Shown here: positions 16,587 through 18,017 of the stretch, one piece after another | How the letters are laid out: each line of letters starts with the position of its first letter | How positions within the stretch are numbered: the first letter of the stretch is position 1 | Source of the DNA: a virus | Taxonomy: Duplodnaviria; Heunggongvirae; Uroviricota; Caudoviricetes | IMG/VR virus record: IMGVR_UViG_637000263_000002 | Reading direction: 5' to 3' (one strand) | Length of the DNA stretch: 57,257 bases | Made by a program: the position numbers

Positions 16587-18017
16587 TGACGCTCATCACG
16601 CAGTTGTTTGACCCATCTTGTCATTGTGGAAAGGCCAACATCCATAGCTTTGGCGGCATCTGCCACCGTGTATTTCTGGTCAACAACCAGTTGAGCGGAT
16701 TCGCGTTTAAACTCTGCGCTAAAATTTCTTTTTTTCATTGGAGCACCTGTGTTGTTCTGAGGTGAGCATATCACCTCTGTTCAGGTGGCCAAATTCAGTG
16801 TGCCACTTCAAAAGCTGAAAATGATGCTCTTCGGCGCAAGCTTGATAATGGTGGTCGGGTGCTCGTCAAAGGAAAATGCCCTGTGCCATCCTCAGCCGAA
16901 ACCTCCAGCGCCTCCGGCATGGGCAATGATGCCACCGTCGAACTCTCTCCAGTTGCTGGACGAAACGTTCTCGGTATCCGGGACGGAATCATCAGCGACC
17001 AGACAGCATTGAGAATGCTTCAGGAGTACATCAGGATCCAATGCCTTGGGGGGTAGCGGTAATTTTACTCATTATCCTTCAAATCAGATTCTGTTGTCAG
17101 AGGAATGGGGGAAGCTGGATTCGCAAGAGCTTTTTATGGGCAGTTTAGCTAAAAAAAGGCAACACGAAGCTAAAACTACCAACATAAAGTGCTGACCAGC
17201 TAGCAGCTGAAATCAGACTCACTGTATACACTTTCACTGGATGAAGTTGCAACATTCCTGCCACCAAAGGAGCAATGTAACGCAGCACGGCGATAAAGCG
17301 CGAAGTGAAAAGTATTGACACAGAGTTATTTTGCAACTGAAGGCGAACCCGTTCTATTGTATTGGAACGGCTCGATATTATACATGCAAGTTGAGGGATA
17401 TGCCCAATTATTATACCAAGATGGTAATTAACGATAGTACCGCACCATGCGCCACTCATGACCGTGATTCCAGCTTCCCATGGTGAAAGAGTCGTCTTGC
17501 TGACTGTAATTACAGTGGCCATCATAATTGATGCTGGTGGCAATATCGCCGAAATGAGTAAAGTGGATTTTGTGAACGCTATTATAAAAAGAAGCCCCCA
17601 TAGGCGATATGGATGAAGTACAAAATAGTTCATCAAAGCATTTATCCACTCCATCAATGTCTTTCCTTCTGTGAATTTTTCTTTGCTATTTAACCGTGAT
17701 ACGACTTAATTTAGGCTTAAACACCTTACATTTACAAGGTACTCCTGTGGGGGGCCCTGCCACGGAGCGTCGCAGGAGTGAGTGATGAGGAAGTGAAGTG
17801 GCACACTGAATTTGGCCACCTGAACAGAGGTGATATGCTCACCTCAGAACAACACAGGTGCTCCAATGAAAAAAAGAAATTTTAGCGCAGAGTTTAAACG
17901 CGAATCCGCTCAACTGGTTGTTGACCAGAAATACACGGTGGCAGATGCCGCCAAAGCTATGGATGTTGGCCTTTCCACAATGACAAGATGGGTCAAACAA
18001 CTGCGTGATGAGCGTCA

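What the first reader, a model, noticed from the sequence alone, without database searches (positions are those of the whole stretch)
17145..17657. DedA-family membrane protein at the position normally occupied by bor
A 170-aa multi-pass membrane protein with a DedA-like RFIxxxRxIAPLxAG motif lies convergent to Rz, immediately after the spanin genes, in a lower-GC stretch. In lambda this slot holds the bor lipoprotein moron. A phage-carried DedA homologue could affect envelope homeostasis of the lysogen.
Basis: partly seen in the sequence, partly recalled or inferred. Interest (0 to 1): 0.45.

Follow-up and report, generated by a model that had tools for sequence, protein, structure and literature searches.

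The report
Short DedA gene in prophage remnant
A real, intact gene for an unusually short DedA-family inner-membrane protein sits as foreign cargo where phage lambda carries bor, inside a prophage remnant scrambled by insertion sequences (Shigella-type); it keeps the family's phosphate-binding arginines but has lost the acidic residues thought to couple transport to protons.

Summary
The ORF at 17145-17657 (-) is a real gene. It passes Pfam's VTT/DedA threshold (52.4 bits against 33.9), gives a confident DedA-core model (pLDDT 90), is under purifying selection (dN/dS 0.09-0.25), and has 42% GC against about 51% in its flanks. In intact relatives it lies antisense between Rz and the small terminase, the slot that bor holds in lambda. 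A 78%-identical copy follows the lysis genes of an unrelated Citrobacter prophage, and only CDS + 72 bp upstream + 10 bp downstream is shared.

- In this window Rz is cut by IS911, and the 983-bp Rz'-DedA segment is bracketed by inverted IS911 copies and inverted relative to the terminase genes. The prophage is defective.
- The protein belongs to a small Enterobacterales subfamily that is chromosomal in Enterobacter, Arsenophonus, Morganella and Kosakonia.
- It derives from the COG0586 (Und-P flippase) branch and keeps R130/R136/S52, but has K for E39 and A for D51, no conserved acidic residue, and no C-terminal helices. The published three-subfamily scheme does not describe this combination.

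Function is inferred: a proton-uncoupled translocator or binder of an anionic lipid (probably undecaprenyl phosphate), expressed from the prophage. No promoter could be identified.

The parts
17145..17657 (-). CDS for a short DedA/VTT-family inner-membrane protein. It is 170 aa from TTG 17657; the conserved start is ATG 17654, giving 169 aa. Key residues: K30, P40-P41-A42-S43, R120, R126, W154.
   Evidence: ORF. Pfam PF09335 at 52.4 bits, above the 33.9 threshold. Alignment with YqjA/DedA. AF2 pLDDT 90.3. dN/dS 0.09-0.25. Identical to WP_011069285.1.
17658..17729 (-). Upstream stretch of 72 bp that travels with the CDS between unrelated prophages and Citrobacter chromosomes. It contains the Shine-Dalgarno AAGGA (17664-17668) and presumably the gene's own promoter, which was not identified.
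   Evidence: Homology between the E. coli-phage and Citrobacter-phage copies runs from -72 to +10 around the CDS. Conserved blocks appear in the alignment. No sigma-70 consensus site was found.
17057..17144 (.). The 88-bp gap between the convergent stops of Rz and the DedA gene. No intrinsic terminator was detected.
   Evidence: Terminator scan found 0 sites. RNA fold z-score 0.33.
16811..17056 (+). 3' fragment of the i-spanin gene Rz (codons 76-156). The N-terminal 75 codons, including the TM segment, are missing because of IS911.
   Evidence: Translation matches L001 Rz residues 76-156 with one substitution (W to R). The junction with the IS911 end lies at 16810/16811.
16821..17012 (+). Intact embedded Rz1 (o-spanin lipoprotein) ORF, 63 aa, with lipobox VVGC.
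   Evidence: Translation, identical to the +1-frame ORF inside L001 Rz.
15562..16810 (-). IS911 copy A (1249 bp), intact orfA/orfB. It separates terS from the inverted Rz'-DedA segment.
   Evidence: 100% identical to annotated 'IS3-like element IS911 family transposase' copies in S. flexneri plasmids. Self-BLAST. Ends read.
17794..19039 (+). IS911 copy B, inverted relative to copy A. Its orfB is broken into 123 aa and 138 aa pieces. Its IRL end lies 137 bp upstream of the DedA start, and its outer end joins a truncated DUF1133 Q-like gene.
   Evidence: Self-BLAST at 99.6%. ORFs. Ends. DUF1133 hit covering profile positions 43-176 only.
17791..17793 (.). AAG, one copy of the 3-bp target duplication. 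The other copy is at 15559-15561 as CTT. The duplication is split by inversion of the 983-bp segment.
   Evidence: L001 positions 8990-8992 are present at both junctions. Strains with a single IS911 keep the native terS-DedA junction.
14736..15500 (-). Small terminase subunit gene. It is the native neighbour of the DedA gene, 194 bp away in intact phages, and is now separated from it by IS911 copy A.
   Evidence: 99.7% identical to L001 8990-10433. L001 annotation.

Best explanation
The feature is an intact, selected gene for a minimal DedA/VTT-family inner-membrane protein. It was acquired from an enterobacterial chromosome and is carried by lambdoid phages as an antisense cargo gene ('moron') just downstream of the lysis cassette, the slot that bor holds in lambda. 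In this window the carrier prophage is defective. IS911 has cut Rz, and a second IS911 copy has inverted the 983-bp Rz'-DedA segment, but the gene and its 72-bp conserved leader are untouched. These points are shown here: family membership, fold, slot, foreign composition, purifying selection, mobility as a 595-bp unit, and chromosomal orthologues. The following is inferred. The gene is transcribed from its own promoter independently of the late operon, so it is expressed in the lysogen. The protein works as a lipid-phosphate binder or translocator of the COG0586 (undecaprenyl-phosphate flippase) lineage. It uses the retained R120/R126/S43/W154 site to hold an anionic head group. Because both carboxylates (E39 to K30, D51 to A42) are lost and no conserved acidic residue remains, it would act without proton coupling, as an equilibrative flippase or scramblase. 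The expected pay-off for host and prophage is extra capacity or robustness in lipid-carrier recycling and envelope homeostasis (O-antigen, ECA and peptidoglycan supply, and tolerance to polymyxin, alkaline pH or bacitracin-type stress).
For: The Pfam VTT_dom hit is above threshold. The subfamily profile scores E. coli COG0586 paralogues far above the others: DedA 58.7, YqjA 58.0 and YghB 41.4 bits, against YdjX 12.6, YqaA 8.8 and YdjZ -2.6. The nearest out-group among 1.8 billion representatives is DedA-PAP2(-LssY_C) fusions. That architecture was used as evidence linking DedA to C55-P(P) (PMC9876793; PMC10127716). R130/R136/S52/P49 equivalents are invariant in the 16-sequence alignment A2, and these residues are essential or lipid-binding in YqjA and UptA. 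The AF2 model shows the DedA core with two re-entrant hairpins. The antisense slot between Rz and terS is seen in L001 and L002, matching bor in lambda. The same gene sits at the 3' end of a different lysis cassette (holin_8-GH19) in a Citrobacter prophage with a GpA-type terminase. Only CDS + 72 bp upstream + 10 bp downstream is shared. GC is 42% against 51% in the flanks. dN/dS is 0.24 between the two phage-borne copies and 0.09-0.25 overall. Orthologues are chromosomal across Enterobacter species and are retained in Arsenophonus genomes of 0.85-0.94 Mb. The ORF is intact in all 18 Shigella/E. coli loci examined, although IS elements hit its neighbours.
Against: No sigma-70-type promoter or terminator was found, and there are no expression data. 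E39 and D51 are essential in YqjA, so losing them could mean loss of transport. The protein also lacks the roughly 45 C-terminal residues of YqjA/DedA. No substrate evidence was obtained here. The 18 Shigella/E. coli copies differ by only 0-3 nt, so their intactness says little about selection. The gene is rare in E. coli (6 of 5426 complete genomes).
Confidence: 0.5

Rival explanations
1. The gene is a silent passenger. It rode into the phage by illegitimate recombination, is not expressed usefully, and persists in Shigella only because the remnant is young.
For: No recognisable promoter or terminator was found. The prophage is defective and riddled with IS elements. Shigella/E. coli copies differ by only 0-3 nt, so intactness is uninformative. 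The gene occurs in 6 of 5426 complete E. coli genomes.
Against: dN/dS is 0.24 between the Shigella-type and Citrobacter phage copies at dS about 0.49, so the gene was constrained while phage-borne. The 72-bp leader is co-conserved. The gene is present in two unrelated phage backbones. IS elements repeatedly hit its neighbours but never the ORF in 18 loci.
Confidence: 0.2
2. The protein is a phospholipid scramblase of the COG0398/eukaryotic TMEM41B-VMP1 functional type, not a polyprenyl-phosphate carrier. It would alter inner-membrane phospholipid asymmetry in the lysogen.
For: Like COG0398 proteins, it lacks acidic residues at the first re-entrant helix. That feature was used to argue for energy-independent scrambling (residues).
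Against: It keeps both arginines, which COG0398 proteins partly or wholly lack. Its profile similarity is to COG0586 (58 bits) rather than COG0398 (12.6 and -2.6 bits). Its nearest relatives are PAP2 fusions.
Confidence: 0.15
3. The protein is a modulator or poison subunit. As a truncated, carboxylate-free DedA, it would heterodimerise with host DedA proteins through the re-entrant hairpins, or otherwise alter the inner membrane. The effect would be to tune host DedA activity or to exclude superinfecting phages.
For: It lacks residues essential in YqjA and lacks the C-terminal helices. DedA proteins are modelled as dimers with the hairpins at the interface. Prophage-encoded small inner-membrane exclusion proteins are a known class (general knowledge).
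Against: Orthologues with the same KPPAS...R...R signature are stable chromosomal genes across Enterobacter, Morganella and Kosakonia. They are also kept in Arsenophonus endosymbiont genomes below 1 Mb, which argues for an autonomous housekeeping activity. There is no PADLOC hit.
Confidence: 0.12
4. The gene is cargo of an IS911 composite transposon that inserted here as a unit, so its position next to Rz is coincidental.
For: Two 1.25-kb IS911 copies in inverted orientation bracket the 983-bp segment.
Against: The outer flanks (CTT at 15559-15561, GTG at 19040-19042) are not a direct repeat. The 3-bp duplication AAG lies at one outer and one inner junction, as expected for insertion followed by inversion. 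Strains with one IS911 (L023, L029, L033, L034) or none (L001, L021, L024) have the same Rz-DedA-terS order.
Confidence: 0.03

Closest known systems
E. coli YqjA / YghB / DedA and B. subtilis UptA (COG0586 DedA subfamily, Und-P flippases)
   Same: VTT/DedA core with two re-entrant hairpins. The second-hairpin motif is shared, with both arginines (R120/R126 = R130/R136), S43 = S52, P40 = P49 and W154 (UptA W146). Of the three subfamilies, this one gives the best profile scores.
   Different: Only 22-24% identity. E39 is K30, G50 is P41 and D51 is A42, and no conserved acidic residue exists anywhere. About 10 N-terminal and about 45 C-terminal residues, including the last TM helix, are absent. 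NCBIfam equivalog scores are far below cut-off (30.7 against 236; UptA 19.5 against 250).
DedA-PAP2(-LssY_C) fusion proteins ('bifunctional DedA/PAP2')
   Same: These are the nearest relatives outside the subfamily in a profile search of 1.8 billion representatives. Their DedA domain usually also lacks D51 (S/T/A/V at that position) and keeps both arginines.
   Different: They keep the E39 glutamate and carry PAP2 and LssY_C domains (450-740 aa). The window protein is a stand-alone 169-170 aa domain with Lys at that position.
Lambda bor (and other morons downstream of lambdoid lysis genes)
   Same: Same slot and orientation: antisense, directly after Rz/Rz1 and before the packaging genes. It has deviant base composition and is a self-contained unit.
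   Different: No sequence or fold relationship. Bor is a 97-aa outer-membrane lipoprotein, whereas this is a polytopic inner-membrane protein. Bor's expression in lysogens and serum-resistance phenotype are established; nothing is known here.
COG0398 DedA proteins (YdjX/YdjZ; eukaryotic TMEM41B/VMP1 scramblases)
   Same: No acidic residues at the first re-entrant hairpin.
   Different: COG0398 proteins lack one or both arginines and score only 12.6 and -2.6 bits against the subfamily profile.

Membership tests
DedA / VTT superfamily (Pfam PF09335) | Match to the VTT_dom profile above Pfam's gathering score | tested here: met
   52.4 bits against a 33.9 cut-off, E 9.3e-14, residues 42-162 on profile positions 3-121 of 123.
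DedA / VTT superfamily (Pfam PF09335) | Core of three TM helices plus two re-entrant helix-break-helix hairpins | tested here: met
   AF2 model with pLDDT 90.3 and pTM 0.84. Helices at 16-31, 59-85 and 140-169; hairpins at 33-36/42-53 and 112-119/125-135. This is a prediction only. No solved structure of the fold was found.
COG0586 DedA subfamily (Und-P flippases: YqjA, YghB, DedA, UptA) | Closest sequence relationship among the three bacterial subfamilies | tested here: met
   Subfamily HMM scores: DedA 58.7, YqjA 58.0, YghB 41.4 bits, against YdjX 12.6, YqaA 8.8, YdjZ -2.6.
COG0586 DedA subfamily (Und-P flippases: YqjA, YghB, DedA, UptA) | Two conserved basic residues at the second re-entrant hairpin (R130, R136) | tested here: met
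   R120 and R126 are invariant in the 16-sequence alignment A2. A few of the more distant representatives carry K or C at one of the two positions.
COG0586 DedA subfamily (Und-P flippases: YqjA, YghB, DedA, UptA) | Two conserved acidic residues at the first hairpin (E39, D51), proposed proton-binding sites | tested here: not met
   K30 and A42 occupy these positions, and the signature K-PPAS is invariant in alignment A2. No acidic column is invariant in A2. The definition comes from PMC10127716.
COG0586 DedA subfamily (Und-P flippases: YqjA, YghB, DedA, UptA) | Und-P flipping activity, or complementation of DedA-null phenotypes | not testable with these tools
   Requires genetics or biochemistry.
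COG0398 DedA subfamily (putative phospholipid scramblases) | Lacks the acidic residues and also lacks one or both arginines; groups with YdjX/YdjZ | tested here: not met
   The acidic residues are absent, but both arginines are present, and profile scores against YdjX/YdjZ are 12.6 and -2.6 bits.
Lambdoid moron in the bor slot | Located between the last lysis gene and the packaging genes, on the strand opposite to the late operon | tested here: met
   L001 and L002: Rz(+) | DedA(-) | terS(+). Lambda: Rz/Rz1(+) | bor(-). In the window the segment is additionally inverted by IS911.
Lambdoid moron in the bor slot | Base composition deviates from the flanks, and the unit is discrete and found in otherwise unrelated phages | tested here: met
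   GC is 42% against about 51%. A 595-bp unit is shared with a Citrobacter prophage that has a different endolysin and terminase.
Lambdoid moron in the bor slot | Own promoter and terminator; expression from the repressed prophage | tested here: inconclusive
   No sigma-70 consensus site upstream and no terminator, although the 72-bp leader is conserved. Expression cannot be tested here.
Bor lipoprotein family | Sequence homology to Bor | tested here: not met
   The only Pfam hit is VTT_dom. The resemblance to bor is positional only.
IS911 composite transposon | Matching target-site duplication at the two outer ends | tested here: not met
   Outer flanks are CTT and GTG. The AAG duplication is split between an outer and an inner junction.

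The most novel reading that the evidence does not exclude
The KPPAS...R...R proteins would form a fourth functional class of bacterial DedA proteins: carboxylate-free, with three conserved cationic residues (K30, R120, R126) at the hairpin tips. They would move a more strongly anionic lipid than Und-P without using the proton gradient, for example undecaprenyl pyrophosphate. The inward-to-outward flippase for that lipid is unassigned in the sources read here (describes the flip without naming a protein; that it is unassigned is my reading). Temperate phages would have mobilised this class as a lysogenic-conversion gene that became fixed in Shigella flexneri.
Probability: 0.07. Interest if true: 0.8.

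Novelty: new variant of a known kind. Interest (0 to 1): 0.4.

Why it matters
DedA proteins have only recently been assigned as undecaprenyl-phosphate and phospholipid flippases. The current model ties proton coupling to E39/D51 and head-group binding to R130/R136. This subfamily is a natural variant in which the acidic pair is gone (one position charge-reversed) while the arginines are kept. It is nevertheless under purifying selection and is retained even in endosymbiont genomes below 1 Mb. That gives a direct test of whether the carboxylates are needed for flipping or only for energising it. It also adds an inner-membrane lipid-transporter homologue to the kinds of cargo carried in the bor slot of lambdoid phages. 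I found no close homologue in 50,697 deposited phage genomes and no phage protein of this fold in BFVD. The gene occurs on at least 1000 contigs (the tool's counting cap), under names from S. flexneri, S. sonnei, S. dysenteriae and E. coli, and S. flexneri depends heavily on Und-P-linked O-antigen synthesis and modification. The practical stake is modest unless a phenotype is shown.

Tried and rejected
- The first AF2 run, on a 16-sequence alignment, gave an unusable model (pLDDT 55.9). It was replaced by an 89-sequence alignment.
- BFVD gave only weak hits to giant-virus 'SNARE associated Golgi' proteins and no phage protein.
- tblastn against INPHARED phages gave 9 hits at <= 30% identity, on records that look like host-containing contigs, so there is no close phage homologue.
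- PHROGs gave one weak family of unknown function (31 bits). PADLOC gave none.
- Promoter and terminator scans found nothing in the relevant positions, and the downstream RNA fold was no better than shuffles. My reading of the conserved leader by eye found no convincing -35/-10 pair.
- Rfam found nothing real in 16700-17900.
- Literature searches for phage or prophage DedA found no relevant report. An apparent hit in a Stx2h paper was the place name 'Dedacun', and the 'moron' hits were the author name Morona.
- The composite-transposon reading was rejected on target-duplication geometry and on comparison with single-IS strains.

Full report
**1. Observation**

The ORF at 17145..17657 on the minus strand is present exactly as described: 170 aa from a TTG. 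Homologues begin at the following ATG (17654, 169 aa). That ATG is preceded by AAGGA at 17664-17668, whereas the TTG is not conserved.

The protein passes Pfam's curated threshold for the VTT/DedA domain (PF09335; 52.4 bits against 33.9; E 9e-14). RefSeq annotates the identical protein as 'DedA family protein' WP_011069285.1. NCBIfam equivalogs are hit only far below cut-off (PRK10847 30.7 against 236; UptA 19.5 against 250).

The gene has 42.1% GC (GC3 39.8%), against 51% for terS and 52% for the window as a whole. Its stop lies 88 bp from the convergent Rz stop. Among eight phage-borne and chromosomal homologues, dN/dS is 0.09-0.25, and it is 0.24 between the two phage-borne copies.

**2.

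Self-comparison and comparison with intact relatives show that the 983-bp segment 16811-17793 is bracketed by two inverted copies of IS911: copy A at 15562-16810 and copy B at 17794-19039. Copy A is 100% identical to copies annotated as IS911 in S. flexneri plasmids. The orfB of copy B is broken.

Rz is cut at 16810/16811. Only codons 76-156 remain, although the embedded Rz1 ORF (16821-17012) is intact.

The segment is inverted relative to terS (14736-15500, minus strand). The trinucleotide AAG (L001 8990-8992) is found at 17791-17793 and, as CTT, at 15559-15561. This is a 3-bp target duplication split between an inner and an outer junction. The two outer flanks (CTT and GTG) do not match.

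S. flexneri SFBU1023 and three other loci carry a single IS911 and keep the native terS-DedA junction. The window is therefore a derived state: an IS911 insertion followed by inversion. It is not a composite transposon that arrived as a unit.

The wider window is a mosaic. It has IS2 in terL (12785-14117), three IS600 copies (5779-7043, 20751-21987, 31131-32395) and a truncated DUF1133 Q-like gene at 19040. It also has a second lambdoid lysis cassette at 28.6-31.1 kb, a third IS911 at 24025-25273 and a Mu-type transposase at 4147-5781. The carrier prophage here is plainly defective. The IS content and the best matches indicate a Shigella flexneri-type chromosome.

**3. Native context**

In E. 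coli FDAARGOS_944 (L001) the order is holin - RrrD - Rz (+) | DedA (-) | terS - PBSX-type terL (+), with 194 bp between the DedA and terS starts. In lambda, bor occupies the same place and orientation after Rz/Rz1.

A 78%-identical copy lies antisense at the 3' end of a different lysis cassette (holin_8, GH19 endolysin, an 89-aa ORF) in a Citrobacter youngae-type prophage with DUF1441/GpA terminases. A relic of an RrrD-type lysozyme 3' end sits on the other side of the gene there.

DNA homology between the two phage contexts is limited to the CDS plus 72 bp upstream and about 10 bp downstream, 595 bp in all. The gene therefore behaves as a discrete mobile cargo unit.

It is rare in complete E. 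coli genomes (6 of 5426). All 18 Shigella/E. coli copies examined are intact but differ by only 0-3 nt.

No close homologue exists in 50,697 deposited phage genomes. No phage protein of this fold was found in BFVD.

**4. The family behind it**

Homologues form a small subfamily of 167-180 aa proteins confined to Enterobacterales:
- Citrobacter, 57-78% identity
- Kosakonia, 72%
- Enterobacter species, about 50%
- Lelliottia and Huaxiibacter, about 43%
- Arsenophonus, about 40%, including genomes of 0.85-0.94 Mb
- Morganella, about 37%
- Proteus myxofaciens

Outside Shigella/E. coli and C. youngae the gene is chromosomal. It lies next to mgtE in Enterobacter, Lelliottia, Huaxiibacter (divergent orientation) and several Arsenophonus (tandem orientation). 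It lies next to a YkuD L,D-transpeptidase in Kosakonia and next to dinI in C. meridianamericanus. The simplest history is capture of a chromosomal gene of the Citrobacter/Kosakonia clade by lambdoid phages, though the direction of transfer is not proven.

**5. What kind of DedA it is**

The published framework (Todor, Herrera and Gross 2023, PMC10127716) defines three subfamilies:
- COG0586 proteins (Und-P flippases) have acidic E39/D51 at the first re-entrant hairpin and basic R130/R136 at the second.
- COG0398 proteins lack the acids and one or both arginines.
- COG1238 proteins have the acids but no arginines.

An HMM of the subfamily scores E. coli DedA 58.7, YqjA 58.0 and YghB 41.4 bits, against YdjX 12.6, YqaA 8.8 and YdjZ -2.6. 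In a profile search of 1.8 billion representatives, the next relatives after the subfamily are DedA-PAP2(-LssY_C) fusions. By descent it belongs to the COG0586 lineage.

Gap-free alignment across the first hairpin gives E39 to K30, G50 to P41 and D51 to A42. P49, S52, R130 and R136 are retained as P40, S43, R120 and R126. The signature K...PPAS...R...R is invariant in the 16-sequence alignment A2 and is shared by most of the roughly 28 subfamily sequences among the representatives, a few of which vary at S52, R130 or R136. No acidic column is invariant anywhere in the protein.

The PAP2-fused relatives often lack D51 as well, but they keep the glutamate. The protein also lacks about 10 N-terminal and about 45 C-terminal residues of YqjA/DedA, including the last TM helix.

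The AF2 model (pLDDT 90.3) reproduces the DedA core: three TM helices and two hairpins whose tips carry LPPAS and R120. E39, D51, R130, R136 and S52 are functionally required in YqjA. R112, R118, E32 and W146 contribute to C55-P binding in UptA.

The combination 'no acids, both arginines, plus an extra lysine' is not one of the three described classes.

**6. Mechanism**

These points are shown: family, fold, slot, mobility, selection and residue pattern.

The rest is inferred. The antisense orientation, like that of bor, implies transcription independent of the late operon, and therefore in the lysogen. The co-travelling 72-bp leader presumably holds the promoter. The retained arginine/serine/tryptophan site argues for binding of an anionic lipid head group. 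The COG0586 descent and the PAP2-fusion neighbours point to polyprenyl phosphate. Loss of every conserved carboxylate argues against proton-coupled transport, so I favour an equilibrative flippase or scramblase, or a lipid-binding role.

I put about 0.95 on the identity statements and about 0.35 on the specific mechanism, which gives 0.5 overall.

Weaknesses:
- No promoter or terminator was found.
- No expression or phenotype data exist.
- The missing residues are essential in the best-studied paralogue.

**7. Rivals**

- Silent passenger (0.2). This is countered by dN/dS between the phage copies, the conserved leader, and the gene's presence in two phage backbones.
- Phospholipid scramblase of COG0398 functional type (0.15). 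This is countered by the retained arginines and the profile affinities.
- Dominant-negative modulator or exclusion factor (0.12). This is countered by stable chromosomal orthologues, including those in reduced endosymbiont genomes, and by the absence of a PADLOC hit.
- IS911 composite-transposon cargo (0.03). This is rejected on junction geometry and on comparison with single-IS and IS-free relatives.

**8. Comparison with known systems, and novelty**

The protein is a member of the DedA/VTT superfamily, since its defining features were tested and met. It is not a typical COG0586 flippase, because the acidic pair was tested and is not met. It is not related to Bor. In the searchable literature I found no report of a DedA-family moron in a tailed phage.

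I rate it a new variant of a known kind. The gene is already annotated by family name, but the subfamily's residue pattern, minimal size and phage mobilisation are undescribed.

Interest is 0.4. It is a tidy, credible finding and offers a natural experiment on the proton-coupling model of DedA flippases, but it is not very surprising and has no demonstrated phenotype.

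Noticed in passing
window 15562-16810, 17794-19039, 24025-25273: There are three IS911 copies. Copies A and B are inverted and bracket the 983-bp Rz'-DedA segment. The split 3-bp duplication (AAG/CTT) and comparison with S. flexneri SFBU1023 (a single IS911 and the native junction) show an IS911-mediated inversion. The orfB of copy B is broken into 123 aa and 138 aa pieces.
   Followed up: yes
window 16811-16986 and 30954-31129: A 176-bp stretch of Rz is present twice at 100% identity. The second lysis cassette (holin around 29.3 kb, Rz 30714-31133) is cut at a different point by IS600 at 31131. Two related lambdoid prophage lysis regions are therefore both inactivated by different IS elements.
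   Followed up: partly
window 19672-19981 and 28682-28992: There are two near-identical phage tRNA clusters downstream of Q-like genes: CAT anticodon (called Met by ARAGORN, Ile by PGAP in L001), Arg-UCU, Thr-UGU and Gly-UCC.
   Followed up: no
window 5779-7043, 20751-21987, 31131-32395; 12785-14117; 4147-5781: There are three IS600 copies (99.8% identical to copies annotated as IS600). IS2 sits inside the large terminase gene, the same insertion as in E. coli FDAARGOS_943. A Mu-type transposase gene is truncated by IS600.
   Followed up: partly
L006-L008, L041-L069 (Enterobacter and relatives); L010-L012, L070-L074 (Arsenophonus): Chromosomal orthologues of the short DedA lie next to the Mg2+ channel gene mgtE in two different arrangements: divergent in Enterobacter, tandem in Arsenophonus. 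In Kosakonia the downstream neighbour is a YkuD L,D-transpeptidase. This may be a functional link to divalent-cation or cell-wall homeostasis, or it may be mere synteny.
   Followed up: partly
P0041-P0169, e.g. P0044, P0046: The closest out-group consists of roughly 450-740-aa DedA-PAP2-LssY_C fusion proteins. Their DedA domain keeps E39 but usually has S/T/A/V instead of D51, so D51 is not universal even within the COG0586 lineage.
   Followed up: partly
L077, L091, L096-L099 (Arsenophonus genomes of 0.85-0.94 Mb): The short, carboxylate-free DedA is retained in strongly reduced endosymbiont genomes. Whether it is their only DedA could not be checked.
   Followed up: no
L003 7793-7930 (Citrobacter prophage): A 45-aa relic of an RrrD-type lysozyme C-terminus (89% identical to L001 RrrD) lies just beyond the DedA gene, downstream of a complete GH19-type lysis cassette. 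This suggests that one lysis module was replaced by another, with the DedA gene at the junction.
   Followed up: partly
L001 2832-3880: The intact relative prophage also carries queH (epoxyqueuosine reductase) and hokD in its early/late junction region. These are further cargo genes.
   Followed up: no
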